Assembly (NCBI GenBank): GCA_964630295.1
Contig: CAZVTU010000001.1
Span: 1-33,411 of the forward strand
From: an uncultured Candidatus Saccharibacteria bacterium
GTDB taxonomy: Bacteria > Patescibacteriota > Minisyncoccia > Minisyncoccales > RBG-13-42-11
Reading direction: 5' to 3'
Length of the DNA: 33,411 nt
Shown here one piece after another: positions 4,174 through 30,431 of this stretch. Position 1 is the stretch's first letter, and the number at the start of each line of letters is the position of its first letter. Made by a program: the position numbers and the translations under genes. The notes under the pieces were generated by a model. The model saw only the letters and a list, made by a program, of their open reading frames with translations. It did no database searches and was not told the origin of the DNA.

Positions 4174-5322
4174 GTGAAAGAGTTTAAGAAAATAAATATT
4201 CATATCTATCCATCAAATATCAGGCATGAAAGTCGTATTTTAAAAGAAACTAAAAGTATTGGTGATTCTGGCTTAGTAGATAAAATTTTTATTATTGGGA
4301 TGGGAGGGAAAGATTTTAAAGAATTTGAACACTTAGACAAAAAAAGAACAGTATGGTTAATTCCTTTTAAAATCGGAGGATTGCCTGATTATGGTTTTTG
4401 GCGAATTTTTAAGTACCTCGAGTGGATGTCAAAAATTCTTATTGGTTTAAGAAAAGAAAAGATTAGTTTGGTTACCTGCCATTCTCTGCCGGTTTTACCT
4501 TTGGGGATACTGTTTAAAATATTTAAAAAGTCAAAAGTAGTTTATGACGCTCACGAATTAGAAACTGAAGGAGCAGGTGTGTCAAAAATAAGAAAAATAC
4601 CATCAAAAATAATTGAGAGAATTTTAATAAATTATGTAGATAGTATTATTGTGGTGAGTGATTCAATAGCTGAGTGGTATAAAAATAAATACAATTTAAA
4701 GAAAGTTTATGTTGTTAAAAATTTCCCCCGCCGACAAAAAATTAAACAGAATAATATTTTAAAGAGAAAATTTAATATTAAAGAAGACGAAATACTATTT
4801 ATAAATCAAGGAGTTTTAGGTGAAGGAAGGGGAACTGAAATTTTATTAAGCGTTTTTTCAAAACTTAATCCTAAAAAACACATTGTTTTTATGGGTTATG
4901 GGGGGTTGGAAAATGAAATTAAAGAATATGAAAAAAAGTTTTCCAACATCCATTTTTCCCCAGCAGTAAAACCAGAAGAAGTCATAGATTATACAGCCGG
5001 TACCGATGTTGGAGTACATCTGGCAGAAAATATTTGTTTAAGCTATTTTTATTCTTTGCCAAATAAAATTTTTGAATATATTTTAAGTGGAATACCGATT
5101 ATTGTTAGTAATTTTCCGGAAATGGCAAAGATTGTAGATGAAAACAATTGTGGCTGGAAAGTTTCTGTTGATAAAAAATCATTAAGGCAATTGGTAGAAA
5201 AAATTTCTAAAGAAGACATCGAGAAAAAGAAAAAAAATACTTTAAATTGCCGGGATAAATTTATCTGGGAAGAAGAAGGTAAAAAATTAGTAAAGATTTA
5301 TGAGAAACTACTCAGAGACTAA
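4174..5322 (+). CDS. Glycosyltransferase, GT-B fold (GT4-like)
   Basis: GTG start. 382 aa. C-terminal half has a GT1/GT4-like pattern (LPNKIFEYILSGIPIIVSNFPEM). Glycan cluster context. Confidence 0.7.
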   Translation: MKEFKKINIHIYPSNIRHESRILKETKSIGDSGLVDKIFIIGMGGKDFKEFEHLDKKRTVWLIPFKIGGLPDYGFWRIFKYLEWMSKILIGLRKEKISLVTCHSLPVLPLGILFKIFKKSKVVYDAHELETEGAGVSKIRKIPSKIIERILINYVDSIIVVSDSIAEWYKNKYNLKKVYVVKNFPRRQKIKQNNILKRKFNIKEDEILFINQGVLGEGRGTEILLSVFSKLNPKKHIVFMGYGGLENEIKEYEKKFSNIHFSPAVKPEEVIDYTAGTDVGVHLAENICLSYFYSLPNKIFEYILSGIPIIVSNFPEMAKIVDENNCGWKVSVDKKSLRQLVEKISKEDIEKKKKNTLNCRDKFIWEEEGKKLVKIYEKLLRD

Positions 5323-6268
5323 TTTGCCTTATATTTCAATATTAATACCCTGTCGGAATGAAGAGAGATATATTGGAAAATGTCTTGAGTCTATAATTTC
5401 TAACAACTATCCAAAAGATAAAATTGAGATTTTGGTTGTTGATGGAATGAGCAAAGATAGGACAAGAGATATTATTAAAAAATTCCAAATTACAAATCCC
5501 AAATCCCAAATTCAATTATTTGATAATCCGAGGAAATTTACCCCATTTGCTTTTAATATTGGAACTAAGAAAGCAAGAGGTGAAGTTATAATGCTAATGG
5601 GAGCCCACGCCATTTACGAAAAAGATTATGTTTCAAAATGCGTTAAATACCTTGAAGAATACAATGCTGATAATGTTGGCGGGGTGATGAAAGTGTTGCC
5701 GAGTAAAAATACTCTTTGTGCAAAAGCTATTGCTATTTCTCTTTCCCATTCTTTTGGAGCCGGCGGTTCTCATTTTAGAATTGGTATAAAAGAACCGAGA
5801 GAAGTAGATACTGTTTTTGGTGGCTGTTATAAAAGAGAGGTTTTTGAGAAAATTGGATTGTTTAATGAAAAATTAAAGAGAAGTCAGGATATGGAATTTA
5901 ATCTAAGACTGAAAAGAGCCGGTGGAAAAATTCTTTTAGCACCGGACATTATTTCTTACTATTATCCCAAAGATAATTTAAGAGATTTTTTCAAGCATAA
6001 TTTTAGAGATGGCGTTTGGGCGATTTTGCCCCTCAAATTTGTTAAATTACCCTTCAAATTAAGGCATTATATTCCTTTAATTTTTGTTTTGACTTTGCCT
6101 TTGAGTATTTGGTTTTATTTTTTATTTTCTTTATTTTTCTCTGTTCAAATTGCCTTTCAAGAAAAAAATTTCAAATTATTCTTTCTAATGCCAATTGCTT
6201 TTTTCTGCCGTCACTTCGGCTATGGTTTTGGTTCTTTATGGGGATTAGTAAAAATTTTTTCAAAATGA
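5300..6268 (+). CDS. Glycosyltransferase family 2 with C-terminal membrane segments
   Basis: PYISILIPCRNEERYI, VVDGMSKDRT and RSQDMEFNLRL motifs typical of GT2. Hydrophobic C-terminus. Confidence 0.85.
   Translation: MRNYSETNLPYISILIPCRNEERYIGKCLESIISNNYPKDKIEILVVDGMSKDRTRDIIKKFQITNPKSQIQLFDNPRKFTPFAFNIGTKKARGEVIMLMGAHAIYEKDYVSKCVKYLEEYNADNVGGVMKVLPSKNTLCAKAIAISLSHSFGAGGSHFRIGIKEPREVDTVFGGCYKREVFEKIGLFNEKLKRSQDMEFNLRLKRAGGKILLAPDIISYYYPKDNLRDFFKHNFRDGVWAILPLKFVKLPFKLRHYIPLIFVLTLPLSIWFYFLFSLFFSVQIAFQEKNFKLFFLMPIAFFCRHFGYGFGSLWGLVKIFSK
5480..5514 (+). repeat. Heptanucleotide tandem repeat, 5 units (AAATTCC AAATTAC AAATCCC AAATCCC AAATTCA), inside the GT2 CDS
   Basis: Read directly from the sequence. 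Encodes KFQITNPKSQIQ. Shares the 12-mer CAAATCCCAAAT with 12646-12657. Confidence 0.8.
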
Positions 6269-7053
6269 TTGAAGAAAGAAAACAAAAAGAAATAGAATAC
6301 TACGATAAAAAAGCCGAAGAGTGGTTAAAAGAATATTCAGAAAAAGAATGGCAGACTGATTTCGAGGGTTTTAAGCCAACTCTTCTTTCTTGTTATAATT
6401 TTACTTACAAAATTTTAGAGAAATACGTTAAAAACAAAGAAGTTTTAGATTATGGTTGTGGAAATGGGGTCCATTCTATTTTTTTAATAAGGGCAGGAGC
6501 TAAGAAAGTTGTGGGAATTGATTTATCAGAGAAATCTTTAGAAATTGCCAGAGAAAGAATAAAAAGAGAAGGACTGGAGGGGAAAGTAGAGTTTTTAAAA
6601 ATGGATTGTGAAAAAATGGATTTCCCGGCAAATTATTTTGATATTATTTTTGATGGCGGCACTTTTTCTTCTTTAGATTTAAAAAAAGCTTATCCTGAAA
6701 TAGTCAGAGTTTTAAAACCAAATGGTTCTCTTTTAGGTATCGAGACCTTCGGTCACAATCCATTTACCAACCTTAAAAGGAAAATTAATAAATTAACCGG
6801 AAAAAGGACAAATTGGGCAGTGAGTCATATTTTTCGGATGAAATATTTAAAGGAAGCTGAAAAATATTTTAATAAAATCGAAACTAAATATTTTCATTTA
6901 ATTTCTTGGTTTGCTTTCCCATTTTTAAATCTTCCCGGAGGTAAAATGTTATTAAAAATATTAGAAAAGATAGACGAAATTCTATTTAAAATCCCTCCTT
7001 TAAAGAAATACGCTTTTAAGGTAGTATTTATTTTTTCAGAACCAAAGAAATAG
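6265..7053 (+). CDS. Class I SAM-dependent methyltransferase
   Basis: Motif I LDYGCGNGVHSIFL and VLKPNGSL. The start was moved to the ATG at 6265 (an ATGA overlap with the GT2 stop), because the 52-aa N-terminal extension in the ORF track merely overlaps the GT2 C-terminus. Confidence 0.8.
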   Translation: MIEERKQKEIEYYDKKAEEWLKEYSEKEWQTDFEGFKPTLLSCYNFTYKILEKYVKNKEVLDYGCGNGVHSIFLIRAGAKKVVGIDLSEKSLEIARERIKREGLEGKVEFLKMDCEKMDFPANYFDIIFDGGTFSSLDLKKAYPEIVRVLKPNGSLLGIETFGHNPFTNLKRKINKLTGKRTNWAVSHIFRMKYLKEAEKYFNKIETKYFHLISWFAFPFLNLPGGKMLLKILEKIDEILFKIPPLKKYAFKVVFIFSEPKK

Positions 7054-16008: not shown

Positions 16009-16458
16009 ATGAAGATTATAATTAGAACTAAAAATTTAAAACTAACTTCCGCTTTAAGACAATATCTTAAAGAAAAAATAAATTCTCTTGATAAATTTGC
16101 GAAAATTTTCCAAGAGAAAGAAAAATATTTTAATGGTTTCTATGGGAAAGGAAAACCACGAGTGGAGGCGTGGGTAGAAATTAGTAAGACTACACAACAT
16201 CATCAGAAAGGTCCCCATTTCAGGGCAGAAATTCAGATGCGCTTACCAAGGAAAAGCCTAAGAGCAACTGCTAAAGAAAAAAATTTAAAATTAGCCATCG
16301 TTCAAATTAAAGATGAGTTACAAAGACAATTAAAACAATATAAGAACAAATTGGAATCGTTAACTAAAAGAAGACAAAGAACCCTAAAAAAAGAATTTCA
16401 TCTATCCCCCCAGGCCAGATTTTATCGAAAAGGAAGAATTAGAGAAGAAGGAATTTGA
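16009..16458 (+). CDS. hpf: Ribosome hibernation-promoting factor / RaiA family with a basic C-terminal tail
   Basis: MKIIIRTKNLKLTSALRQYLKEKINSLDKF is a typical HPF/YfiA N-terminus. 149 aa. I could not recognise the dimerisation domain of long HPFs in the tail. Confidence 0.8.
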   Translation: MKIIIRTKNLKLTSALRQYLKEKINSLDKFAKIFQEKEKYFNGFYGKGKPRVEAWVEISKTTQHHQKGPHFRAEIQMRLPRKSLRATAKEKNLKLAIVQIKDELQRQLKQYKNKLESLTKRRQRTLKKEFHLSPQARFYRKGRIREEGI

Positions 16459-16460
16459 TC

Positions 16461-16489
16461 TTTACAAGTTTTTTTAAAAATGTTAAAAA
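16461..16489 (+). promoter_or_regulatory. Possible promoter for the polyamine operon (TTTACA-17-TAAAAA with a TGn extended -10)
   Basis: Hexamers and spacing read from the sequence. The AT-rich context makes false positives likely. Confidence 0.3.
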
Positions 16490-16509
16490 GATAAAAGATA
16501 TTTTTACCG

Positions 16510-16606
16510 GTTAATCACTTTTTGTTTTACTCTTTGTTTTTTCCCGATTGTTATCGGGATTAGCTATAGAAAAGCATTAAATGCTTTTCTAAGGTAAGTG
16601 ATTAAC
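16510..16606 (+). promoter_or_regulatory. Structured 5' leader (three-way junction), candidate cis-regulatory RNA or riboswitch upstream of speD
   Basis: An 11-bp closing stem, GTTAATCACTT (16510-16520) with AAGTGATTAAC (16596-16606). It encloses hairpin TCCCGAT-TGTT-ATCGGGA (16542-16559) and hairpin/palindrome TAGAAAAGCATT-A-AATGCTTTTCTA (16567-16591). It ends 8 nt before the ATG. Confidence 0.45.
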
Positions 16607-16614
16607 TTAAAATT

Positions 16615-17016
16615 ATGTTTCAAAAAACAAAGAGATCCATCCAATGGGTCATAGAAAACAGAAAAAGAAAATATTCTGGCATTCATCTAATAGCCGAATT
16701 TTGGTTTGGAAAAATTATTGAAAATTCAGAAGAACTTAAAAAAATTTTAATCGAAGCTGTAAAAGAAGCAAACAATACTCCTTTAAAAGTTGCAATTCAC
16801 AAGTTTCAACCCCAGGGAATCACTGGGATTGTTTTATTAGCAGAATCTCATATTGCTATTCATACTTGGCCAGAATTTAACTACACAGCTATTGATATTT
16901 ATACTTGTGGTGATAAATCTAATCCCGAGAGAGCCTTAGAATATCTAAAAAAAGAACTTCAACCTCAGAAAGTTGAAATTAAAAAATTAAAAAGAGGTAA
17001 AATAAATACTCAATGA
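16615..17016 (+). CDS. speD: S-adenosylmethionine decarboxylase proenzyme (pyruvoyl-dependent, small bacterial/archaeal class)
   Basis: GIVLLAESHIAIHTWPE contains the self-cleavage E-S site. Also IDIYTCG. 133 aa. Confidence 0.9.
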   Translation: MFQKTKRSIQWVIENRKRKYSGIHLIAEFWFGKIIENSEELKKILIEAVKEANNTPLKVAIHKFQPQGITGIVLLAESHIAIHTWPEFNYTAIDIYTCGDKSNPERALEYLKKELQPQKVEIKKLKRGKINTQ

Positions 17017-18164
17017 ATTGGGAACTTATTTCGATGACGGAAAAAGATTTAAGAAAACTTTACAATAGGTTTATAAAGTTTAGAAAACGTTATTTTATTC
17101 TTGATGCTAAAAAATATTCTACTAGTCTTCAAGGACTGAAACTATCTGATAGAATAATCGGAGAATTTTACGATAATTATTATAAAATTCCTTACATTTC
17201 TTTTTTAGAGAACATCAAATATCTCCTTTACTCCAAGAACGCTTTTGATTTTTTATCAAAAGATTCTTCTGAAGATTGGACTTTGTGGCCTTATTTATAT
17301 TTTTTAGAGAAAGAAAGAATAATCAAAGTCCAAAAGAGCGGAAGAGTTAAAACAATAAATAGAGGAATATTAAAATTAATTCCCAGACCGCGGGCAAGAA
17401 AAGAAATAAGAAAGGCAATAGAAAAAAAATTAAAAATTAAAATCAAAGAATCAGAACCAGTAATTAACTTATTTAAAAAGTTTCGAGACTTCGAAGTTAA
17501 AGCAAAATGGGATCAGATGCCAATTTCTCAAGGATCAGCTATTTTTGTGGTCGAAAAAATCTTAGAAAGGTTGCCTTTGAAAAAAAATTTTTTATTTGTC
17601 GGAGATGACGACTTCGTATCTGTCATTTTGGGTTTATCGGCCCCAGAGGTTGAGAGTTTAGTGATTGATGCTGATGAGCAACTTTTAGATTGTATTAATC
17701 TTTTAGCTAAGAAATTCAAGTTAAAAATAAAAATAAAAAAAGTAGACATTAGAAAGAAAACAAATTTAGGTGAAAAAATTATTGGTTTTTTAACTAATCC
17801 AGTTTATACCGCTGATGGAGTTAAAGAGTTTGTAAAATATGGAAAAAATCAGTTAGGAAAAGATGGGGGAGTAGTTTTTTTAGAAGTAGGAGATGAGTCA
17901 ATTGGAAATAGATTCCTGACTTTGCAAGAATTCTTTACTAAAAATGGCCTAATTATCAGTGAGTTAATCCGAGGCAGAATATTCTATCCTTATATCGAAC
18001 TTTATAAAGAAGATAAAGAAATATTTAGAAGGCTATCAGCATTGATAGATGGTAAAGTTATCAAAAACTCTCCCAAATTAGCTGCTTCCTTATATATCTT
18101 TAAATATTTACCTTCCAAAATAAAAAAGGTAAAGTTTAAAAAACCATTTTATGCTTATCTCTAA
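17013..18164 (+). CDS. DUF43/BpsA-like putative aminopropyltransferase (branched-chain polyamine synthase family) with an N-terminal extension of about 170 aa
   Basis: The C-terminal half reads DQMPISQGSAIFVVEKI...FLFVGDDDFVSVILGL...VIDADEQLL...FLTNPVYTADG. From memory this resembles the DQ...T, GDDDLTS and TDPP blocks of archaeal DUF43/BpsA. Sits between speD and speE. Confidence 0.5.
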   Translation: MNWELISMTEKDLRKLYNRFIKFRKRYFILDAKKYSTSLQGLKLSDRIIGEFYDNYYKIPYISFLENIKYLLYSKNAFDFLSKDSSEDWTLWPYLYFLEKERIIKVQKSGRVKTINRGILKLIPRPRARKEIRKAIEKKLKIKIKESEPVINLFKKFRDFEVKAKWDQMPISQGSAIFVVEKILERLPLKKNFLFVGDDDFVSVILGLSAPEVESLVIDADEQLLDCINLLAKKFKLKIKIKKVDIRKKTNLGEKIIGFLTNPVYTADGVKEFVKYGKNQLGKDGGVVFLEVGDESIGNRFLTLQEFFTKNGLIISELIRGRIFYPYIELYKEDKEIFRRLSALIDGKVIKNSPKLAASLYIFKYLPSKIKKVKFKKPFYAYL

Positions 18165-19017
18165 AAAATGGTTTTGCGAAGATGTGGTTCCCGGGAAAAG
18201 ATTTGGGAAAATAAAACATTGTTTTTTAATAGATAAATTGGTTTTTAAAGGAAAAACATCCTATCAGGATGTTCTTATTTTTGATAATTCAATTTATGGA
18301 AGAGTGGTAGTGTTAGACGGAATTGTCCAACTCTCGGAACGTGATGAATTTATTTACCATGAAATAATTTCTCATCCAATTTTATTTTCTCACCCCAATC
18401 CTCAAAAAGTTTTAATTATTGGAGGGGGGGATGGGGGAGCACTGAGAGAAGTATTAAAACACCCAGTAAAGCAAGTTTTTCTAGTAGATATTGATAAAAA
18501 GGCAGTAGAACTTTTTAAGAAATATATACCTTTTGTTTCTAAAGGCTCTTTCAGAGACAAACGAACAAAAGTATTTTTTAAAGATGGGAGGAAATTTATT
18601 AAAAATTTCCAGAATTTTTTTGATGTTGTGATTATTGATAGTAATGATCCCACAGGACCTTCTTTACCTCTTTTTTCTCGTAAATTTTATGAAGATGTTG
18701 GTGGGGCTTTGAAAAAAGATGGGGTAATGATAACTTTAATTGGTTCTTTTTTAGATTTTGAAACCTTAATTAAAAAAACTATTAAGAAGTTAAGAACCAT
18801 TTTCCCGAAAGTTCGGCTTTATCGAGTAGCTATTCCATCTTATCATTGTGGAGATTTTTGTTTTATTGGGGCTTCTAAAAAGATTGATTTGGGAAAAGTT
18901 AATTTTAAGAAAATAGAAAAGAGGTTCCAAAAAATCAAAGGAAAAAATCAGTTTAAATATTATTCTCCCGAAATCCATTTAGCAACCATAACTTTACCAA
19001 AGATCTGGAAAATTTAA
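18151..19017 (+). CDS. speE: Spermidine synthase (aminopropyltransferase)
   Basis: YQDVLIF, DEFIYHE, VLIIGGGDGGALREVLKH and IIDSNDPTGPS motifs. Confidence 0.9.
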   Translation: MLISKKWFCEDVVPGKRFGKIKHCFLIDKLVFKGKTSYQDVLIFDNSIYGRVVVLDGIVQLSERDEFIYHEIISHPILFSHPNPQKVLIIGGGDGGALREVLKHPVKQVFLVDIDKKAVELFKKYIPFVSKGSFRDKRTKVFFKDGRKFIKNFQNFFDVVIIDSNDPTGPSLPLFSRKFYEDVGGALKKDGVMITLIGSFLDFETLIKKTIKKLRTIFPKVRLYRVAIPSYHCGDFCFIGASKKIDLGKVNFKKIEKRFQKIKGKNQFKYYSPEIHLATITLPKIWKI

Positions 19018-19018
19018 G

Positions 19019-20041
19019 ATGAAAGAAAGATTAAAAGTATTAATTTTAGGAAAAGGGAATATTGGACGAGCTGTAGCTTTCTATTTAAAAAAATTTAAAG
19101 CAGCAAAAAGGATTGCTTTTTTTTGTAATGAAAAGGAAGTTAAAAATTTTGATCTTCTAATAGGGGCTCTACCAAGCGAAACGGCTGAAGAGAGCTTAAG
19201 ATTGGCTTTGAAATATAAAAAAGATTTGATTGATGTTTCAGCCTTACCAATCTCGTTTTATTTCAAATTTAAAAAAGATATTTTAGATAAGGGAATAAAA
19301 GTAATTCCCGGCTGTGGTTTTTCTCCGGGTTTGGTTAATTTAATTTGCGGTTTTGAATTTCAAAATTTTGATAAGATAAATAATTTTGAAATCGCGGCTG
19401 GTACTCTCCCAAAAGATTCTAAGTTTCTTTTTCCTTTTACTTGGTGTTTTGAAGATTTAATTGAGCAACATCTTTATAAAGCAAGCATTATTAAAAATGG
19501 AAAGAAGATAAATCTACCTCCTTTTTCGGGTTATAAGAAAGAGAAACTAAAGGAAGTTGGAGAATTTGAAAGTTATTTTGTCGAAGAGTGGAATACCTTA
19601 TTTTATAGTTTAAAACCAAAAAATATAAGCTTTAGAGTAATAAGACCGATTGGCTTTTTTTATTTCTTTCAATATCTTAAAAATTACGGCTTCCTTAAAA
19701 AGGAAAACCTTTCTTTCACTAAAAAAATCTTGACCAGAGTAAAAATAGACAATATTACTTTAGCTACAGTTAAAATTTCTGGGACAAAAAAGGGGAAGAA
19801 AAAAGAAATTATATGGAAGCTCTTTAGTTTTGCCAAAGCAAGAGAGAAGTTAAATTCTATGCAAAAAATAACGGGTATTATCCCAGCTATTATGGTAAAG
19901 TTTCTTTCTGATGGAAAGATAGTAAATAAGGAGTTAATATTTATGGAAGATATTGGTAGAGATGAAGAATTGTTTAAAGAAATTTTAAAAGAAATTAAAA
20001 ATGAAAAATCAATCTTATTTTACTCCAAAAGCAGAAGTTAG
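19019..20041 (+). CDS. Saccharopine-dehydrogenase-fold NAD(P)-binding protein (same superfamily as carboxy(nor)spermidine dehydrogenase and homospermidine synthase); function unknown
   Basis: N-terminal Rossmann motif VLILGKGNIGRAV. GCGFSPGLVNL resembles the family motif. At 340 aa it is shorter than characterised CANSDH or HSS enzymes. Confidence 0.5.
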   Translation: MKERLKVLILGKGNIGRAVAFYLKKFKAAKRIAFFCNEKEVKNFDLLIGALPSETAEESLRLALKYKKDLIDVSALPISFYFKFKKDILDKGIKVIPGCGFSPGLVNLICGFEFQNFDKINNFEIAAGTLPKDSKFLFPFTWCFEDLIEQHLYKASIIKNGKKINLPPFSGYKKEKLKEVGEFESYFVEEWNTLFYSLKPKNISFRVIRPIGFFYFFQYLKNYGFLKKENLSFTKKILTRVKIDNITLATVKISGTKKGKKKEIIWKLFSFAKAREKLNSMQKITGIIPAIMVKFLSDGKIVNKELIFMEDIGRDEELFKEILKEIKNEKSILFYSKSRS

Positions 20042-20537
20042 ACGGTCTCCTTTTGATAAAAAAGGAATTTTTGCTAAAAAGCCGATAAAAAAAGGAGAAA
20101 TTATTTCAAAACCTGGAGTCGGTGTAATAATCACAGAAAAAGAGTATAAAAAACTCCAAAAAAAGAGTTTCAGAACCATCGGGCATTATGCAATAAAAGT
20201 GGCTGATAGGACTTATTTAATTTCGTCCAAAGACGGAAGATTAGATGAGGACGATTTTTTTAATCATAGTTGTGAACCTAATGCTGGAATAAAAGAAAAA
20301 TTTACAGTTGTGGCAATGAAAAATATAAAACCTGGAGAAGAAATAACTTATGATTACGCCATGACCGATTGCGATAAAGATGATTATTTTAAATGTAACT
20401 GCGGAGCAAAGAACTGTCGCAAAATTATTACAGGGAACGATTGGAAAATTCCAGCCCTCCAAAGGAAATATAAGGGATATTTTTCTTGGTATATCCAAGA
20501 AAAAATCAATAATTTATTAAGGAAGAGAAGAACTTGA
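20001..20537 (+). CDS. SET-domain methyltransferase
   Basis: GIFAKKPIKKGEII, NHSCEPNA, EEITYDY and a post-SET-like Cys cluster CNCGAKNC. Overlaps the upstream gene by 41 nt. Confidence 0.85.
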   Translation: MKNQSYFTPKAEVRRSPFDKKGIFAKKPIKKGEIISKPGVGVIITEKEYKKLQKKSFRTIGHYAIKVADRTYLISSKDGRLDEDDFFNHSCEPNAGIKEKFTVVAMKNIKPGEEITYDYAMTDCDKDDYFKCNCGAKNCRKIITGNDWKIPALQRKYKGYFSWYIQEKINNLLRKRRT

Positions 20538-20562
20538 CATTTTCTCCAAGATGTAGTATAAG
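20534..20562 (+). promoter_or_regulatory. Strong sigma70-type promoter (TTGACA-17-TATAAG)
   Basis: The -35 box contains the TGA stop of the SET gene. Followed by a leader of about 55 nt with an 11-bp bulged hairpin (20567-20598). Confidence 0.6.
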
Positions 20563-20610
20563 CTAACTTAGCAACTAAACAATTTATTAGGTTGCAAGGA
20601 TCATTTTTGA

Positions 20611-20620
20611 AAGGAGGTGA
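20611..20620 (+). promoter_or_regulatory. Perfect Shine-Dalgarno AAGGAGGTGA
   Basis: Ends 3 nt before the ATG at 20624. The other genes whose upstream regions I inspected have at best a weak SD (GGAG before secF, AAAGG before secA). Confidence 0.8.
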
Positions 20621-20623
20621 GAA

Positions 20624-20959
20624 ATGGAAGTCGAAAAAGCAAAGGAACTGTTTGAACTTCTCAAGGGTCTACCAATGGAGGACTATGCCGAGGAAGAGTT
20701 TAATGAGGAAGATCTTCGAGGGGACTATAACATCATCGATTTCTGGAAGTCAAAAGGGAAAAAGCTGACAATAGTCAGCGATTTCACTGATAGCGTTGAC
20801 CTTAGCTATTCAGAGATTGATGAGGTGGTATTGGTCGGTCGGTTTAATCGGGTCGATGCCACGAAAGCAAAGATAAAAATTCTGGATACTCGGGAAGCCG
20901 CTATCGTCAAGCTTGACCTTGCTGAAGCTGAGGTCGAGGAAGTGAAAGGGGGGAGATAA
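20624..20959 (+). CDS. Hypothetical small acidic protein (111 aa), compositionally atypical
   Basis: Has its own promoter, SD and terminator. Rich in Glu and Asp. A 60-nt hand count gave about 43% GC against about 23% at the start of secA. Four of five Arg codons are CGN. I recognised no family. Confidence 0.7.
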   Translation: MEVEKAKELFELLKGLPMEDYAEEEFNEEDLRGDYNIIDFWKSKGKKLTIVSDFTDSVDLSYSEIDEVVLVGRFNRVDATKAKIKILDTREAAIVKLDLAEAEVEEVKGGR

Positions 20960-20979
20960 CAACTCTAAGGCATGAGCTT

Positions 20980-21021
20980 AAAGGGGAGTAGGCAATTACG
21001 CTGCTCCCCTTTGAATTTTTT
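20980..21021 (+). terminator. Rho-independent terminator
   Basis: AAAGGGGAG (20980-20988) pairs with CTCCCCTTT (21004-21012), followed by GAATTTTTT. Confidence 0.75.
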
Positions 21022-21039
21022 CCAAAAAAATTATAAAAT
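21011..21039 (+). promoter_or_regulatory. Possible secA promoter (TTGAAT-17-TAAAAT) overlapping the terminator tail
   Basis: Hexamers and spacing read from the sequence. The -10 box ends 11 nt before the ATG at 21051. Confidence 0.35.
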
Positions 21040-27501: not shown

Positions 27502-28800
27502 ATGACAGCTGAAGAGGTTAATCTATTTTTATATTATTTTTGGCAGATTTTAAAAAACTGGTGGTGGGTGATAATTCCTTTTATCCTCTGGAAACCATTC
27601 TTGTTTTTATATCTTTGGTGGCGGAATGATGAATGGATTAAGAAACAGCGAATGGTTTTACTTGAAATTAAACTGCCCAAAGAAACCTTAAAACCGATTA
27701 GGGCTATGGAACAAGTAATGGCCTCTCTTCACGCAGCAGTTTATCATCCCCCTGACTGGTGGGAAAAATGGATTGATGGTCAAGTTCAATTATCATTATC
27801 TTTTGAGATAGCTTCGATTGGTGGGGAAACCCACTTTTTTGTTAGGAGTGGGGCCGCCTATCGTGATGCCATAGAATCCTCAATTTATTCTCAATATCCT
27901 GAAGCTGAAATTACTGAAGTTGATGATTATACAAAGTATGTTCCACAGAATATTCCTAATAAAGATTGGGATCTTTGGGCTTCAGATTATAAATTATTAA
28001 AAGATGACCATTTCCCAATTAAAACTTATCCGAAATTCGAAACTGAGACAGAAAGAGAGGAAGAAAAAAGAGTAGATCCGGTGGCCGCTCTTTTAGAAGC
28101 TATGGCTAAAGTAAAACCAGGAGAACAACTTTGGATTCAGATTATTGCTGAACCAGTATCTGAGGGTCCAGCCGCAGCCTGGATTAGAAAAGGAGAGGAA
28201 ATCAGAGATAGATTAGCCCGAAGACCAGGAGTTCCAAAACAAAAGCCAATAATTCAAGAAGCAGCTAAAGTTTTAATTACTGGTAAGCCAACTGAAACAG
28301 AAAAAGTTGAAGAAAAAGAAATCATACCTCCAGAAATGAAGCTTACTCCCGGCGAAAGAGAAATAATTACTAGATTAGAGGAAAAAATCTCTAAACCAAT
28401 TTTCAATACTAACATTAGGTTTATTTATTTGGGAAAAAGAAATATTTGGTTTAAACCTAATTTTAGATTAGCTTTTTCTTATTTCAATGGTTACACCACC
28501 GCTAATTTGAATGCTTTATTTCCTTTGGGAAAAACTTTAACCAAGATTCATAAATCTTGGTTTTTACCTTTAAATCTTCTTCGTCCAAGAAGACACTATT
28601 TAAGATGCCGAAAAATATTCAGGAATTATATTAGAAGATTTCCTCCTTTTTTTCCTCGAAAAGGAGGAACTTTTATGTTAAATACTGAGGAATTAGCTTC
28701 TCTTTTTCACTTTCCCAGCGAAGCTGCTGCTCCCGCTCCTGGGGTTACTCGAGTGGAGGCTAAAAAGAAAGGTATGCCTCCAACAATTCCTACCGAATAA
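27502..28800 (+). CDS. Hypothetical membrane-anchored protein, partner of the downstream ATPase
   Basis: N-terminal hydrophobic segment WWVIIPFILWKPFLFLYLWW. Acidic central region and basic C-terminal region. The stop is 5 nt before the ATPase start. No motif recognised. Confidence 0.6.
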   Translation: MTAEEVNLFLYYFWQILKNWWWVIIPFILWKPFLFLYLWWRNDEWIKKQRMVLLEIKLPKETLKPIRAMEQVMASLHAAVYHPPDWWEKWIDGQVQLSLSFEIASIGGETHFFVRSGAAYRDAIESSIYSQYPEAEITEVDDYTKYVPQNIPNKDWDLWASDYKLLKDDHFPIKTYPKFETETEREEEKRVDPVAALLEAMAKVKPGEQLWIQIIAEPVSEGPAAAWIRKGEEIRDRLARRPGVPKQKPIIQEAAKVLITGKPTETEKVEEKEIIPPEMKLTPGEREIITRLEEKISKPIFNTNIRFIYLGKRNIWFKPNFRLAFSYFNGYTTANLNALFPLGKTLTKIHKSWFLPLNLLRPRRHYLRCRKIFRNYIRRFPPFFPRKGGTFMLNTEELASLFHFPSEAAAPAPGVTRVEAKKKGMPPTIPTE

Positions 28801-28805
28801 AAATT

Positions 28806-30431
28806 ATGGCAGAAGATATAAATTTTTTCGGTGAAACAACTTTCCGAAATCAGAGGAAAAAATTTGGTATAAAACTCGACGATCGCCGCCGGCATATGTA
28901 TTTGGTTGGAAAGACTGGAATGGGGAAAACAGTAATGATGAAGAATATGGCCATTCAAGATATTCAACGAGGAAAAGGAGTCGGTTTTGTTGACCCCCAT
29001 GGTGAAGCAGCTGAAGATCTATTAGATTTTGTCCCTTCCGATCGAATTAATGATGTGGTTTACTTTAATCCAGCTGATTTGGAATACCCTATTGCCTTTA
29101 ATATTATGGAAAAGGTGGATGTAGAGCATCGGCATTTGGTGGCTTCTGGATTAATGGGAGTATTTAAAAAAATCTGGCCTGATGTTTGGTCAGCCCGGAT
29201 GGAATATATTTTAAATAATTGTATTTTAGCCCTTTTGGAATATCCAGGTTCTACGCTTTTGGGGGTGAATCGAATGTTAGCTGATCCTGATTATCGGAAA
29301 AAAGTGGTAGATAAAATTACCGATCCCGTAGTAAAGTCTTTTTGGGTTCAAGAATTTGCTAGATATACTCAAAGATATGAAGTGGAGGCGACAGCCGCTA
29401 TTCAAAATAAAGTTGGCCAGTTTATCTCCAACCCTTTAATTAGAAATATTATTGGTCAAGTTAAATCGAAAATTGATATGAGAGAAATTATGGACGGAGA
29501 AAAGATTTTAATTGCTAATATTTCTAAAGGAAAAATTGGTGAAGATAATTCTCGGCTCCTGGGAGCGCTTTTAATAACTAAATTACAGTTAGCCGCCATG
29601 TCTCGGGTAGATATTCCAGAAGAAGAAAGAAAAGATTTCTTTTTATACGTTGATGAATTCCAGAATTTTGCCACTGAATCTTTTGTCAATATTTTATCTG
29701 AGGCTAGGAAATATAGGTTAGCCTTAATTTTAGGTCATCAATATATTGCTCAAATGGAAGAAGTGGTAAGGGATGCGGTTTTCGGTAACATGGGAACGAT
29801 TATTTCTTTTCGAGTAGGAGCTGAAGACGCTGAATTTTTAGAAAAAGAATTTGCTCCCGATTTTGCTGCTTCAGATTTAGTTAATTTAAAAAAATATAAT
29901 ATTTATTTAAAATTAATGATTGATGGATTAGCTGGCCGTCCTTTTTCTGCTGAGACTCTTCCTCCTTTTCCAAAACCTAAAGAATCAAATAAAGAAAAAA
30001 TTATTAAAGTATCTCGTGAGAGATATGGTACTCCTAGAGAAATCGTTGAGGAAAAAATCAATAAATGGACTGGGAATTTAAAATTACCCGAAACCCCAGA
30101 GACAACAACGCCAGTTTTGTATGATGCCCGATGTTCGCGTTGTGGAAAGTGGACCAAAGTAGTTTTTCCTCCTGAGCCCTCCCGGCCAGTTTATTGTAAA
30201 TCTTGTTTAAAGAAAATAAAGAAGGAAAAGGAAGTCTCAAGTGAAGAAAGTCAAAGTATTTCTTTGGAGGAAGCTCTAAAAAAAGAACCAATTTCTTTCT
30301 CCGGAAAAGTAGTAACTGAAAAGAAAAAAGAGAAAAAGAAGGAAAAGAGAAAAGAAGTTAATGTGGAAGAACTTAAAAAAACTCTGGAGGAATCTTTAAG
30401 AGATATAAAAGGTAAAAGTAAGGAAAAATGA
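28806..30431 (+). CDS. Type IV coupling protein-like (TraD/TrwB/VirD4 superfamily) P-loop ATPase with a C-terminal CxxC-x17-CxxC zinc ribbon and a Lys/Glu-rich tail
   Basis: Walker A GKTGMGKT (28908-28931), VDPHGEAAEDLL, Walker B FFLYVDEFQNF and LILGHQYIAQM. Zinc ribbon CSRC-x17-CKSC at 30132-30206. The tail is encoded by a 40-nt all-purine run (30318-30357). Confidence 0.75.
   Translation: MAEDINFFGETTFRNQRKKFGIKLDDRRRHMYLVGKTGMGKTVMMKNMAIQDIQRGKGVGFVDPHGEAAEDLLDFVPSDRINDVVYFNPADLEYPIAFNIMEKVDVEHRHLVASGLMGVFKKIWPDVWSARMEYILNNCILALLEYPGSTLLGVNRMLADPDYRKKVVDKITDPVVKSFWVQEFARYTQRYEVEATAAIQNKVGQFISNPLIRNIIGQVKSKIDMREIMDGEKILIANISKGKIGEDNSRLLGALLITKLQLAAMSRVDIPEEERKDFFLYVDEFQNFATESFVNILSEARKYRLALILGHQYIAQMEEVVRDAVFGNMGTIISFRVGAEDAEFLEKEFAPDFAASDLVNLKKYNIYLKLMIDGLAGRPFSAETLPPFPKPKESNKEKIIKVSRERYGTPREIVEEKINKWTGNLKLPETPETTTPVLYDARCSRCGKWTKVVFPPEPSRPVYCKSCLKKIKKEKEVSSEESQSISLEEALKKEPISFSGKVVTEKKKEKKKEKRKEVNVEELKKTLEESLRDIKGKSKEK

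What the first reader, a model, noticed from the sequence alone, without database searches (positions are those of the whole stretch)
16461..20537. Five-gene translationally coupled polyamine operon ending in a SET-domain methyltransferase
The order is AdoMet decarboxylase, DUF43/BpsA-like, spermidine synthase, saccharopine-DH-fold protein, SET-domain protein. The junctions are an ATGA overlap at 17013, a 14-nt overlap at 18151, a 1-nt gap at 19019 and a 41-nt overlap at 20001, which suggests a single expression unit. SpeD and SpeE alone make spermidine, so the three extra enzymes imply a more elaborate product. SET enzymes are known as protein-lysine methyltransferases, and a polyamine primary amine chemically resembles a Lys epsilon-amine. 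The operon could therefore make branched and/or N-methylated polyamines, or a polyamine-derived (hypusine-like) protein modification. I am not aware of a described SET-linked polyamine operon.
Basis: partly seen in the sequence, partly recalled or inferred. Interest (0 to 1): 0.7.

Follow-up and report, generated by a model that had tools for sequence, protein, structure and literature searches.

The report
Polyamine operon with SET methyltransferase
A small uncultured bacterium keeps its spermidine-making genes in one tight operon with a lysine-dehydrogenase-like enzyme and a "histone-type" SET methyltransferase, and because this linkage recurs across several phyla it probably points to an undescribed way of modifying polyamines.

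Summary
The five ORFs, their order and all four junctions are real. Only the start is wrong: speD begins at 16615, and 16461-16614 is a structured leader. All five Pfam assignments hold.

The decisive test was synteny, and it passes. A new subfamily of saccharopine-dehydrogenase-fold proteins (SDHL; closest solved structure is P. horikoshii L-lysine dehydrogenase) follows speE in 63 of 63 assessable non-redundant loci. SET follows it in 34 of 60. These loci come from Patescibacteria, Omnitrophota and a Deltaproteobacteria MAG, with unrelated flanks.

Close SET relatives also sit beside other polyamine genes: a DHS-homologue plus agmatinase pair (of the SpeY/SpeB type), an ADC-SpeY-SpeB-MFS operon, a BpsA-like gene alone, and a CASDH-like gene.

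The tailoring genes vary from locus to locus. BpsA-like and SET are nearly exclusive, and the window is the rare form with both. A GNAT acetyltransferase takes the SET slot in some loci.

Best reading: a spermidine core plus amine-tailoring enzymes, with SET N-methylating a polyamine amine. The product and the SDHL reaction are inferred, not shown. A hypusine-like protein modification remains possible.

Bonus: a conserved pseudoknotted leader RNA encloses the speD start codon and has no Rfam match.

The parts
16507..16634 (+). Structured speD leader RNA, probably an H-type pseudoknot. P1 pairs 16509-16520 (GGTTAATCACTT) with 16597-16608. An invariant pyrimidine tract CTCTTTGTTTTT lies at 16530-16541. 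Two variable hairpins occupy 16542-16596. The exact complement of the tract, AAAAACAAAGAG, lies at 16623-16634 inside speD codons 3-7. The start codon (16615) sits between the two helices.
   Evidence: The MFE is -40.7 kcal/mol with z = -6.3. The same architecture occurs in 18 non-identical CPR loci, each with a 10-14 nt perfect complement. On the trimmed alignment 95.8% of cells are paired, against about 50% when the partners are slid; 5 of 8 P1 pairs show changes on both sides, and the pseudoknot helix is 100% paired with one compensatory change. The tract plus its complement occurs only at speD 5' ends in 1.74 Mb of fetched loci. There is no Rfam match.
16615..17016 (+). speD, a class 1b pyruvoyl S-adenosylmethionine decarboxylase proenzyme (133 aa). 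It carries a roughly 18-aa N-terminal extension that holds the 3' strand of the leader pseudoknot.
   Evidence: Pfam AdoMet_dc scores 128.7 bits. NCBIfam TIGR03330 (equivalog) scores 137.6 against a cut-off of 75.65. The closest PDB entries are the Aquifex and T. maritima AdoMetDC, E about 1e-26, and the LLAESH...HTWPE motif is kept.
17013..18164 (+). BpsA_C-like (former DUF43) putative N-alkyl (aminopropyl) transferase, 383 aa. It is a divergent relative of branched-chain polyamine synthase.
   Evidence: Pfam BpsA_C scores 82.2 bits. The PDB BpsA entry 5xnc matches only at E 3.7e-6, but GDDD is aligned. Across the family GDDD is conserved, and motif IV is NP[VI]Y in most members (SPVY, TPIY and, in L018/L019, SPPD in the rest) rather than the DPPE of BpsA. 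No NCBIfam hit was found. NCBI names relatives 'bis-aminopropyl spermidine synthase family protein'.
18151..19017 (+). speE, a polyamine aminopropyltransferase (spermidine synthase type), 288 aa.
   Evidence: NCBIfam NF002010 scores 291.6 (cut-off 260) and TIGR00417 scores 276.2 (cut-off 249.55). The closest PDB entries are bona fide spermidine synthases, E 1e-59 to 1e-53.
19019..20041 (+). SDHL, a new subfamily of saccharopine-dehydrogenase-fold NAD(P) oxidoreductases that resembles L-lysine 6-dehydrogenase (340 aa). It is always found immediately downstream of a speE gene.
   Evidence: Pfam Sacchrp_dh_C scores 62.5 bits. The sequence match to PDB 3abi has E 1.7e-35, or 5.7e-50 with the family profile. 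The AF2 model has pLDDT 91. Foldseek gives 3abi TM 0.82, then CASDH at TM about 0.8 with only 16-19% identity. speE lies upstream in 63 of 63 assessable loci. There is no NCBIfam hit.
20001..20537 (+). Minimal SET-domain methyltransferase (178 aa) with a post-SET zinc motif and a family-specific C-terminal extension (ITGxDWKxPxLQKKYKGYFSWYIQEKI).
   Evidence: Pfam SET scores 68.7 bits. The PDB MLL1 SET domain matches at E 3.8e-18 over residues 12-143. The AF2 model has pLDDT 86, and Foldseek puts ASH1L, NSD and MLL1 on top, with BurB at rank 29. Invariant features are NHSC.PN, EE..DY, C91/C132/C134/C139, D147, W148 and F161.

Best explanation
This is a genuine polyamine biosynthesis and tailoring operon of a Patescibacteria (CPR) genome, transcribed from upstream of a structured leader. 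SHOWN BY COMPARISON: the conserved core is speE followed by SDHL, usually preceded by speD. The amine-modifying genes attached to this core vary from lineage to lineage: a BpsA-like gene between speD and speE, or a SET or GNAT gene after SDHL. INFERRED MECHANISM: SpeD makes decarboxylated AdoMet, and SpeE uses it to aminopropylate a diamine, giving spermidine. The BpsA-like enzyme adds a further alkyl (aminopropyl) group to a polyamine nitrogen. SDHL, an NAD(P)-dependent enzyme of the lysine-6-dehydrogenase / carboxyspermidine-dehydrogenase fold, carries out a C-N redox step on a terminal aminoalkyl group of the SpeE product. This could be an aminoalkyl transfer like that of homospermidine synthase or DHS, or an oxidative deamination or reductive amination. 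The SET enzyme uses AdoMet to N-methylate a terminal primary amine of the polyamine, whose aminobutyl arm mimics a lysine side chain. The expected product is an N-methylated, possibly branched, polyamine. Translation of speD is probably gated by the leader pseudoknot that encloses its start codon.
For: Synteny of the SDHL family (95 loci, 72 clusters at 95% identity): speE lies immediately upstream in 63 of 63 assessable clusters (60 by my distance rule, plus 3 recovered from the architecture strings), speD lies upstream in 43 of 52, and SET lies immediately downstream in 34 of 60. The speD-speE-SDHL-SET order recurs with unrelated flanks in Omnitrophota (L011, L017), a Deltaproteobacteria MAG (L014), a 3.36-Mb genome (L013) and GCA_040960175 (L009).

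The closest SET relatives also sit next to other polyamine genes. DS (DHS homologue)-agmatinase-SET occurs in two CPR contigs, one of them directly upstream of secA, the same chromosomal position as in the window. A tandem SET-SET gene lies divergent from an ADC-SpeY-SpeB-MFS operon. BpsA_C-like-SET occurs alone. A CASDH-like gene is followed by SET, near metK, ahcY and a DS-like gene. SpeY plus SpeB is an experimentally shown homospermidine pathway (PMC13625781).

There is a variable tailoring slot. BpsA-like and SET are nearly mutually exclusive (both 3, BpsA-like only 14, SET only 20, neither 5; Fisher p = 1e-4). A GNAT acetyltransferase replaces SET directly after SDHL in at least 5 loci. 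All three add a group to an amine.

There is a precedent for a small-molecule SET enzyme: BurB methylates free methionine (PMC12542666; it also appears). One SET-AdoMet_dc fusion protein exists (P0407).
Against: No chemistry was tested. The SET protein is a canonical MLL/ASH1L-like lysine methyltransferase by sequence and fold. It belongs to a large, well-conserved bacterial family: at least 585 genomic relatives, and 603 clusters at 50% identity with E <= 1e-30. The 75 more distant members examined have no polyamine gene within 8 kb and no common neighbour. One close relative follows rplJ-rplL. This is what a general protein methyltransferase would look like.

SDHL has no assignable reaction. 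It lacks the CASDH His-Glu-Glu triad, and HSS is not recovered by sequence or among the top 50 fold matches (PMC10413350). SET is absent from 26 of 60 SDHL loci, so SDHL does not need it. The BpsA/SET exclusivity follows phylogeny (CPR versus the others), so the p-value overstates independence. The fusion P0407 is a singleton from one contig.
Confidence: 0.5

Rival explanations
1. The cluster builds a polyamine-derived protein modification, analogous to hypusine. SDHL would be the functional analogue of deoxyhypusine synthase, joining a protein (or free) lysine side chain to a polyamine or aminobutyl moiety through NAD-dependent borrowed-hydrogen chemistry. SET, acting as a true protein-lysine methyltransferase, would methylate that lysine or the new terminal amine on a target such as a translation factor or a ribosomal protein.
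For: SET is most similar to protein-lysine methyltransferases and keeps every catalytic and post-SET motif. SDHL's closest relative acts on the lysine epsilon-amine (3abi). In other CPR the SET gene follows a DHS-family gene that passes NCBI's 'deoxyhypusine synthase' equivalog cut-off (441 against 434), plus an agmatinase. That pairing was proposed for deoxyhypusine formation in haloarchaea (PMC5178350). One SET homologue lies directly after rplJ-rplL. The wide SET family has a constant active site regardless of neighbourhood.
Against: Every bacterial DHS homologue (SpeY) tested makes the free polyamine precursor G44G, not a modified protein (PMC13625781). No candidate target gene is conserved in or next to the clusters. 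The alternative occupants of the same slots, the BpsA-like gene and the GNAT, belong to families with known small-molecule polyamine substrates. No hypusine-like modification of a bacterial protein is known to me (own knowledge).
Confidence: 0.22
2. SET is a functionally unrelated neighbour, a general protein methyltransferase carried along in a compact genome. The real unit is speD-(bpsA-like)-speE-SDHL alone.
For: All genes in the window are co-oriented and packed. SET is missing from 26 of 60 SDHL loci. Most of the wider SET family is not next to polyamine genes.
Against: SET recurs directly after SDHL, often overlapping it, in several phyla with different flanks. It also lies next to four other kinds of polyamine-gene arrangement. 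Chance adjacency would not be regained this often.
Confidence: 0.08
3. The cluster runs a sulfonium route. SET would be a BurB-like methionine S-methyltransferase making S-methylmethionine. The SpeD homologue would decarboxylate it. SDHL, acting as an amine dehydrogenase, would oxidise the resulting dimethylsulfoniopropylamine towards DMSP, or SpeE would use that compound as an aminopropyl donor.
For: BurB is a SET enzyme of the same size that acts on free methionine, and it is detectably similar (E 1.7e-8; fold rank 29; PMC12542666). S-methylmethionine is an AdoMet analogue. SDHL's relative 3abi is an amine dehydrogenase.
Against: The window SET matches MLL1 far better and over its full length (E 3.8e-18 over residues 12-143, against residues 87-146 only for BurB). 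SpeD and SpeE pass the curated equivalog cut-offs for AdoMetDC and spermidine synthase. The SpeY-SpeB-SET and BpsA-SET contexts have no place in this scheme. No aldehyde dehydrogenase is linked to the cluster.
Confidence: 0.03

Closest known systems
Classical SpeD/SpeE spermidine pathway (class 1b AdoMetDC of T. maritima/B. subtilis type, plus spermidine synthase)
   Same: Both genes pass the curated equivalog cut-offs and keep the ES self-cleavage site with HTWPE, and the GGGDGG and DSxDP motifs. They are adjacent and co-oriented, as in many bacteria.
   Different: Here the pair is interrupted by a BpsA-like gene and extended by SDHL and SET. speD carries an N-terminal extension that belongs to a leader pseudoknot. 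In one lineage the SDHL-linked speE is a second paralogue, about 35% identical to the speD-linked one.
BpsA, branched-chain polyamine synthase (N4-bis(aminopropyl)spermidine synthase) of Thermococcus kodakarensis and Thermus (PDB 5xnc, 6j27)
   Same: It has the same Pfam domain, a similar length (383 aa against about 370), an aligned GDDD motif, and it co-occurs with speD/speE.
   Different: It is very divergent (E 3.7e-6 to 5xnc). Motif IV is NP[VI]Y in most members instead of DPPE. It comes from mesophilic, low-GC CPR bacteria rather than hyperthermophiles. Whether the donor is dcAdoMet or AdoMet is unknown.
L-lysine 6-dehydrogenase of Pyrococcus horikoshii (PH1688, PDB 3abi)
   Same: It is the best sequence and fold match to SDHL (29% identity, TM 0.82). 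The two share GxGxxG, DVS, GF(S/A)PGL, a W..D motif and an (N/S)SM..(I/V)T motif.
   Different: SDHL has a shortened Rossmann domain. It has His151 where 3abi has Tyr, and 'CFED' where 3abi has 'SPRD'. It is always linked to speE, which suggests an amine substrate other than free L-lysine. The substrate was not tested.
Carboxyspermidine dehydrogenase (CASDH, PDB 8deb/8h4z) and bacterial homospermidine synthase (HSS)
   Same: They belong to the same fold superfamily, they are polyamine-pathway enzymes, and they form a secondary amine from an amine and a carbonyl or imine using NAD(P) (PMC10413350; PMC13625781).
   Different: Identity to CASDH is only 16-19%. The CASDH His-Glu-Glu triad is not conserved. 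No carboxyspermidine decarboxylase partner is present. HSS is not recovered by sequence (E > 1) or in the top 50 fold matches.
SpeY (bacterial DHS homologue) plus SpeB-type ureohydrolase homospermidine pathway (PMC13625781)
   Same: In sister CPR lineages this cassette occupies the same locus upstream of secA, and it too ends in a SET gene of the same family. A gammaproteobacterial MAG has ADC-SpeY-SpeB-MFS lying divergent from a SET-SET gene.
   Different: It is not present in the window, and a SET partner was not mentioned in that paper.
BurB, the SET-domain methionine S-methyltransferase of Burkholderia (PDB 9l4t; PMC12542666)
   Same: It is a stand-alone SET protein of about 175 aa that acts on a free small molecule. 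It is a detectable homologue.
   Different: Similarity is weak and partial (residues 87-146). It performs S-methylation, not N-methylation, and it sits in a different gene context.
Eukaryotic SET lysine methyltransferases (MLL1/KMT2A, ASH1L, NSD)
   Same: These are the best full-length sequence and fold matches. They share NHSCxPN, ELTYDY and the post-SET CxCxxxxC motif.
   Different: The window protein is a stand-alone bacterial protein with a family-specific C-terminal DW...YxGYF helix. It is embedded in polyamine operons.
Plant putrescine N-methyltransferase (PMT)
   Same: It is the known enzyme that N-methylates a polyamine primary amine with AdoMet (PMC3725402, listed).
   Different: PMT evolved from spermidine synthase (a class I Rossmann methyltransferase fold), not from a SET fold. 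It is a plant alkaloid enzyme.

Membership tests
SET-domain methyltransferases (Pfam PF00856) | Profile match above the curated cut-off | tested here: met
   68.7 bits against a cut-off of 22.4, covering residues 21-119.
SET-domain methyltransferases (Pfam PF00856) | AdoMet-binding and pseudoknot motifs NHSxxPN and ELxF/YDY, plus the post-SET Cys cluster | tested here: met
   FFNHSCEPN, EEITYDY and C91/C132/C134/C139 are invariant in 20 family members and in the 76 wider members. They align to MLL1.
SET-domain methyltransferases (Pfam PF00856) | SET fold | tested here: met
   The AF2 model has pLDDT 86. Foldseek gives ASH1L, NSD and MLL1 at TM about 0.6 and E 3e-11.
Protein-lysine N-methyltransferase (as annotated by NCBI for relatives) | The substrate is a protein lysine | not testable with these tools
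   The name is given by the source only. BurB shows that SET enzymes can act on small molecules (PMC12542666).
Branched-chain polyamine synthase BpsA | BpsA_C domain match and two-domain architecture of about 350-380 aa | tested here: met
   82.2 bits against a cut-off of 27, covering residues 161-333 of 383.
Branched-chain polyamine synthase BpsA | Conserved GDDD motif of the catalytic centre (assignment of its role is from memory of Hidese et al. 2017) | tested here: met
   FVGDDDFVSV aligns to vlGDDDltSv of 5xnc. It is conserved in 24 of 24 family members.
Branched-chain polyamine synthase BpsA | The TDPPET motif seen in solved BpsA sequences | tested here: not met
   The window has TNPVYT. 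Most of the 24 family members have NP[VI]Y, and the rest have SPVY, TPIY or, in L018/L019, SPPD.
Branched-chain polyamine synthase BpsA | Aminopropyl transfer from dcAdoMet to N4 of spermidine | not testable with these tools
   No NCBIfam equivalog is hit. Activity is unknown.
AdoMet decarboxylase, class 1b (SpeD) | Equivalog model above its cut-off, the Glu-Ser self-cleavage site, and the Pro of HTWPE that is said to separate true AdoMetDC from SpeD-derived arginine decarboxylases | tested here: met
   TIGR03330 scores 137.6 against a cut-off of 75.65. LLAESHIAIHTWPE aligns to Aquifex AdoMetDC. The Pro criterion comes from PMC10407285. I could not see the figure, so which Pro is meant is my inference.
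Spermidine synthase / polyamine aminopropyltransferase (SpeE) | Equivalog models above their cut-offs, with both the tetramerisation and catalytic domains | tested here: met
   NF002010 scores 291.6 (cut-off 260) and TIGR00417 scores 276.2 (cut-off 249.55). Both Pfam domains are present. The amine substrate cannot be determined here.
Saccharopine dehydrogenase superfamily | N-terminal GxGxxG Rossmann domain, the Sacchrp_dh_C domain, and the fold | tested here: met
   LGKGNIG lies at residues 10-16. Sacchrp_dh_C scores 62.5 bits. TM is 0.73-0.82 to 3abi, 8deb, 1ff9 and 5l78. Sacchrp_dh_NADP itself is not hit, because the Rossmann domain is shortened.
Carboxyspermidine dehydrogenase (CASDH) | The His-Glu-Glu catalytic triad (His228-Glu229-Glu230 of BfCASDH; PMC10413350) and a linked carboxyspermidine decarboxylase | tested here: not met
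   The 'YHEEL' of 4ina aligns to 'FV-EEW' in the window, with no His. The positions vary across the family. No decarboxylase partner appears in any locus. There is no NCBIfam hit.
Bacterial homospermidine synthase (HSS) | Recognisable homology to HSS | tested here: not met
   No HSS chain was recovered at E <= 1 with the sequence or the profile, and none was among the top 50 Foldseek matches. An HSS-like reaction is not excluded.
L-lysine 6-dehydrogenase | Close homology to the characterised enzyme and conservation of its substrate pocket | tested here: inconclusive
   E is 1.7e-35, identity 29% and TM 0.82. Differences include His151 for Tyr and CFED for SPRD. The pocket residues of 3abi could not be looked up, because the paper is not held.
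Operon (single expression unit) | Co-orientation, overlapping or abutting genes, no convincing internal terminator, conserved order in relatives | tested here: met
   synteny. The only + strand terminator-like matches inside the cluster (16811-16827, 18255-18273) are weak, with tails poor in T. No transcript evidence is available.

The most novel reading that the evidence does not exclude
The SET protein would be the first SET-fold polyamine N-methyltransferase. Its family of at least 600 clusters would then be a bacterial polyamine-methylating family rather than 'histone-like' methyltransferases. SDHL would be a new lysine-dehydrogenase-fold enzyme that remodels the SpeE product by NAD-dependent aminoalkyl transfer, making it a third, independent analogue of DHS and HSS. 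Together with the BpsA-like enzyme they would produce N-methylated and/or branched polyamines not yet catalogued in bacteria. The speD leader pseudoknot would be a metabolite- or polyamine-responsive translational switch.
Probability: 0.3. Interest if true: 0.85.

Novelty: new variant of a known kind. Interest (0 to 1): 0.72.

Why it matters
Polyamine biosynthesis is one of the best-mapped areas of bacterial metabolism. Even so, no bacterial enzyme for polyamine N-methylation turned up in my literature searches or is known to me, and no role in polyamine metabolism has been described for SET-domain or lysine-dehydrogenase-like proteins.

The cross-phylum gene linkage shown here turns two 'hypothetical / mis-named' families into directly testable candidates. 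One is a SET family with hundreds of sequence clusters that is currently annotated as protein-lysine methyltransferase. The other is an SDH-fold family that is always linked to speE.

If SET methylates polyamines, the substrate range of SET enzymes widens beyond proteins and methionine, and the meaning of 'bacterial SET proteins' changes. If instead the cluster modifies a protein, it would be a bacterial counterpart of hypusination.

The organisms concerned (CPR/Patescibacteria and Omnitrophota) have tiny genomes, so keeping a five-gene polyamine module implies that it is physiologically important. The conserved leader pseudoknot would also be a rare example of RNA-level control of bacterial AdoMet decarboxylase.

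Tried and rejected
(1) Rfam was searched at gathering thresholds over the whole window, and permissively over 16400-16700. Nothing relevant was found.

(2) SDHL as CASDH is rejected. The catalytic triad is not conserved, there is no decarboxylase partner and there is no NCBIfam hit.

(3) SDHL as a member of the HSS family is not supported by sequence or fold ranking.

(4) I looked for a gene common to the neighbourhoods of 76 more distant SET homologues, such as a candidate protein substrate. There is none. The apparent clusters were spurious ORFs from high-GC DNA or local synteny within alphaproteobacteria, including a second SET paralogue.

(5) I looked for a conserved gene downstream of the clusters. 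The only recurrent ones are secA (a CPR chromosomal position) and a GNAT in some loci. The radical-SAM/SPASM gene after SDHL in Nealsonbacteria and the 389-aa, TPR and ferredoxin genes after SET elsewhere are not recurrent.

(6) The DMSP / S-methylmethionine route was considered and ranked low (see rivals).

(7) Domain fusions were checked as Rosetta-stone evidence. One SET-AdoMet_dc fusion (P0407) was found, but it is a singleton. The other fusions (a class I methyltransferase, a Kdo transferase, an ABC membrane domain, a T2SSE fragment) are uninformative or may be gene-calling artefacts.

(8) I tried to read the 3abi paper for the pocket residues, but it is not held.

(9) Ten literature searches found no description of a SET-polyamine or a speE-SDH-fold cluster.

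(10) The source organism's name could not be retrieved. Relatives are annotated Pacebacteria, Nealsonbacteria or Patescibacteria.

Full report
OBSERVATION. The window is low-GC DNA (about 0.31). All 32 ORFs of at least 100 aa lie on the + strand.
- speD, 16615-17016
- a BpsA_C-like gene, 17013-18164
- speE, 18151-19017
- a saccharopine-dehydrogenase-fold gene, here called SDHL, 19019-20041
- a SET-domain gene, 20001-20537

I read the four junctions from the sequence, and they are as stated: an ATGA overlap, a 14-nt overlap, a 1-nt gap and a 41-nt overlap. The only error is the start. 16461 is two bases after the stop codon of a ribosome hibernation factor gene (16009-16458). The first start codon of speD is at 16615, and the 156 nt in between are non-coding. 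The only two terminator-like matches on the + strand inside the cluster (16811-16827 and 18255-18273) are weak, with tails poor in T. After SET there is a promoter-like TTGACA-17-TATAAG, a strong Shine-Dalgarno sequence, a 111-aa ORF and a hairpin with a T-run. The unit therefore ends at SET.

DOMAIN IDENTITIES. All five Pfam assignments pass the curated cut-offs.
- SpeD and SpeE also pass NCBI's equivalog cut-offs for AdoMet decarboxylase and for spermidine synthase / aminopropyltransferase. Their nearest solved relatives are bona fide enzymes: Aquifex and T. maritima AdoMetDC, and yeast, Plasmodium, human, B. subtilis, E. coli and T. maritima spermidine synthases.
- The BpsA_C-like protein is a divergent member. 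It matches T. kodakarensis BpsA only at E 3.7e-6. GDDD is conserved, but motif IV is NP[VI]Y in most members rather than DPPE.
- SDHL has no NCBIfam hit. Its best solved relative by sequence (E 1.7e-35; 5.7e-50 with a family profile) and by fold (AF2 pLDDT 91; TM 0.82) is the L-lysine dehydrogenase of Pyrococcus horikoshii. Carboxyspermidine dehydrogenases come next, at 16-19% identity. The CASDH His-Glu-Glu triad (PMC10413350) is not conserved, and homospermidine synthase is not recovered. SDHL is therefore a new subfamily whose reaction cannot be assigned by homology.
- The SET protein is a minimal but complete SET domain, with NHSCEPN, EEITYDY and a post-SET Cys cluster. It is most like MLL1, ASH1L and NSD. 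It also has a family-specific C-terminal helix containing invariant Asp-Trp.

THE KEY TEST: SYNTENY. Starting from SDHL, I collected 95 loci, which form 72 clusters at 95% identity, from metagenomes and genomes. I annotated them with HMMs built from the window and its relatives. The counts over assessable non-redundant loci are:
- speE lies immediately upstream of SDHL in all 63.
- speD lies upstream in 43 of 52.
- SET lies immediately downstream in 34 of 60.
- A BpsA_C-like gene lies between speD and speE in 25 of 51.

The order speD-speE-SDHL-SET occurs in Omnitrophota, a Deltaproteobacteria MAG and other non-CPR contigs with completely different flanking genes. This rules out passive conservation of a CPR chromosomal neighbourhood. 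In one lineage a canonical speD-speE pair is divergently transcribed from a second speE paralogue followed by SDHL, and the two speE copies are about 35% identical. The tightest pair is therefore speE-SDHL.

Starting from SET, the nearest relatives (at least 43% identical) are found in further polyamine contexts:
- A deoxyhypusine-synthase homologue, then an agmatinase, then SET, in two CPR contigs. One of these lies directly upstream of secA, the position occupied by the window's cluster.
- A tandem SET-SET gene divergent from an arginine decarboxylase-SpeY-SpeB-MFS operon in a gammaproteobacterial MAG.
- A BpsA_C-like gene overlapping SET, with no other polyamine gene nearby.
- A distant CASDH-like gene overlapping SET, next to metK, ahcY and a DS-like gene.

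SpeY plus a SpeB-type ureohydrolase has been shown experimentally to make homospermidine from agmatine (PMC13625781). This SET clade is thus repeatedly attached to triamine biosynthesis, whichever pathway is used.

A VARIABLE TAILORING LAYER. BpsA_C-like and SET are nearly mutually exclusive around the speE-SDHL core: both in 3 clusters, BpsA-like only in 14, SET only in 20, neither in 5 (Fisher p = 1e-4, not corrected for phylogeny). The window's Pacebacteria-like lineage is the rare form carrying both. In at least five SET-less CPR loci the gene directly after SDHL is a GNAT acetyltransferase. The accessory genes in these slots therefore belong to three families that add a group to an amine: aminopropyl or alkyl, methyl, and acetyl. 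BpsA acts on free polyamines, and GNAT enzymes include polyamine acetyltransferases such as SpeG (own knowledge). This is the main reason I favour a polyamine amine as the SET substrate. The aminobutyl arm of putrescine, spermidine or homospermidine mimics a lysine side chain. BurB shows that a stand-alone SET enzyme of the same size can methylate a free metabolite (PMC12542666). A single SET-AdoMet_dc fusion protein exists, but it is a singleton, so I give it little weight.

WHAT ARGUES THE OTHER WAY. The SET protein belongs to a large and strongly conserved bacterial family, with at least 585 genomic relatives and 603 clusters at 50% identity with E <= 1e-30. Its active-site residues are constant. 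The 75 more distant members examined, from Chloroflexota, Actinomycetota, Alphaproteobacteria and other groups, have no polyamine gene within 8 kb and no shared neighbour. One close relative follows rplJ-rplL. That pattern is also what a housekeeping protein methyltransferase would show. In large genomes polyamine genes are often scattered, so the absence of linkage is weak evidence either way. A hypusine-like reading, with SDHL as a DHS analogue acting on a lysine and SET methylating the product, therefore stays alive at roughly one chance in five. The idea that SET is a mere passenger is unlikely, and a BurB-like sulfonium route is very unlikely.

MECHANISM, WITH STATUS OF EACH STEP.
- Shown by homology at equivalog level: SpeD makes dcAdoMet, and SpeE transfers the aminopropyl group to a diamine.
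- Inferred from family membership: the BpsA-like enzyme alkylates a polyamine nitrogen.
- Inferred from fold and obligatory linkage only: SDHL performs an NAD(P)-dependent C-N redox step on the product of the adjacent SpeE. The candidates are an aminoalkyl transfer like that of HSS or DHS (for example spermidine plus a diamine giving a homospermidine-type triamine plus diaminopropane), or oxidative deamination, or reductive amination of a terminal amine.
- Inferred from context: SET N-methylates a terminal amine. The Phe/Tyr-switch position is Tyr in the speE-linked proteins and mostly Phe elsewhere, so methylation multiplicity may differ between contexts.

The leader at 16507-16614, together with the first 20 nt of speD, forms a conserved RNA.
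- Helix P1 pairs 16509-16520 with 16597-16608. It encloses an invariant tract CUCUUUGUUUUU (16530-16541) and 0-76 nt of variable hairpins.
- The tract is exactly complementary to codons 3-7 of speD (16623-16634).
- The start codon therefore sits between the two helices of an H-type pseudoknot.
- The fold is far more stable than shuffled sequence (z = -6.3).
- The architecture recurs upstream of speD in 18 non-identical CPR loci.
- P1 shows changes on both sides in 5 of 8 pairs. The pseudoknot helix is 100% paired with one compensatory change, and it moves together with a 5-aa insertion in one sequence.
- In 1.74 Mb of fetched loci the paired motifs occur only at speD 5' ends.
- Rfam has no match.

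This looks like a translational control element for AdoMet decarboxylase. Its effector, if it has one, is unknown.

NOVELTY AND VERDICT. The spermidine core is ordinary. Its obligatory partnership with a new lysine-dehydrogenase-like enzyme, and its recurrent partnership with a SET methyltransferase, are not described in any paper I could search. They would surprise a polyamine specialist. I class the finding as a new variant of a known kind of system. Its interpretation is partly supported: the functional linkage is yes, the product is unproven, and the five-gene form is a lineage-specific composite of a modular system.

Noticed in passing
window 16507-16634 (+); also L005, L007, L097, L098, L100, L105, L109-L111, L113, L115, L119, L121, L129, L139, L151 and L168, upstream of speD: A conserved pseudoknotted leader RNA. 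P1 encloses an invariant CUCUUUGUUUUU tract that pairs with speD codons 3-7, so the start codon is trapped between the two helices. It shows covariation, has no Rfam match, and is a candidate translational switch for AdoMet decarboxylase.
   Followed up: yes
window 20624-20959 (+): A 111-aa acidic ORF with no Pfam or NCBIfam hit. It has its own promoter-like site, a strong Shine-Dalgarno sequence (AAGGAGG) and a hairpin with a T-run terminator at about 20981-21025, in a kilobase that is the most G+C-rich of the window (0.369 for 20001-21000). It is present only in the window's closest relatives (L001-L004) and absent between SET and secA in L005. It is possibly a recent insertion.
   Followed up: partly
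L127 1957-2481, L122 1253-1750, L109 6256-6753, L151 7036-7512, L113 7048-7509: In SET-less CPR clusters a GNAT acetyltransferase occupies the position directly after SDHL. This suggests a variable tailoring slot: methyl, acetyl or nothing.
   Followed up: partly
L020 2814-8492: A gammaproteobacterial MAG carries an arginine/ornithine decarboxylase-SpeY(DS)-SpeB(arginase family)-MFS operon, divergent by about 660 bp from a 355-aa protein with two tandem SET domains of this family. Many of the best matches in the 1.84-billion-protein library are also tandem SET-SET proteins of about 350 aa.
   Followed up: partly
P0407 (303 aa, single Logan contig): A fusion of a SET domain of this family with an AdoMet_dc-family domain that lacks the HTWPE proline and has TS in place of the ES cleavage site. 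It may be a SpeD-derived amino-acid decarboxylase. Because it is a singleton, it could be an assembly or gene-calling artefact.
   Followed up: partly
L179 171-1909 and 2915-5884: A 406-aa SDH-family protein (distant CASDH-like, E 2e-19 to 8h4z) overlaps a SET gene by ATGA. It is followed by metK, ahcY and a DHS-like gene. This is another, different SDH-fold-plus-SET pairing, set among AdoMet-cycle genes.
   Followed up: partly
L177 3704-5507: A SET homologue 50% identical to the window's lies about 430 bp downstream of rplJ-rplL with no polyamine genes nearby. This is the one context that hints at a ribosomal-protein substrate.
   Followed up: no
L007/L008 7149-8288 (Nealsonbacteria complete genomes CP179890 and CP179889): A radical-SAM/SPASM protein follows SDHL where SET would be. 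L018 also has a radical-SAM gene divergent from BpsA-like-SET. It is not recurrent enough to interpret.
   Followed up: partly
L135, L146, L149, L164: One lineage has speD-speE1 divergently transcribed from speE2-SDHL. The two SpeE paralogues are only about 35% identical, so the SDHL-linked aminopropyltransferase may have a different substrate or product.
   Followed up: partly
window 27502-30431: A 432-aa ORF with no Pfam hit is followed by a TrwB/TraG-like type IV coupling protein with a treble-clef zinc finger, in an otherwise housekeeping region of this small genome.
   Followed up: no
window 5300-7053: The glycosyltransferase ORF (5300-6268) and the class I methyltransferase ORF (6109-7053, TTG start) overlap by 160 nt as listed. 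The methyltransferase probably starts further downstream.
   Followed up: no
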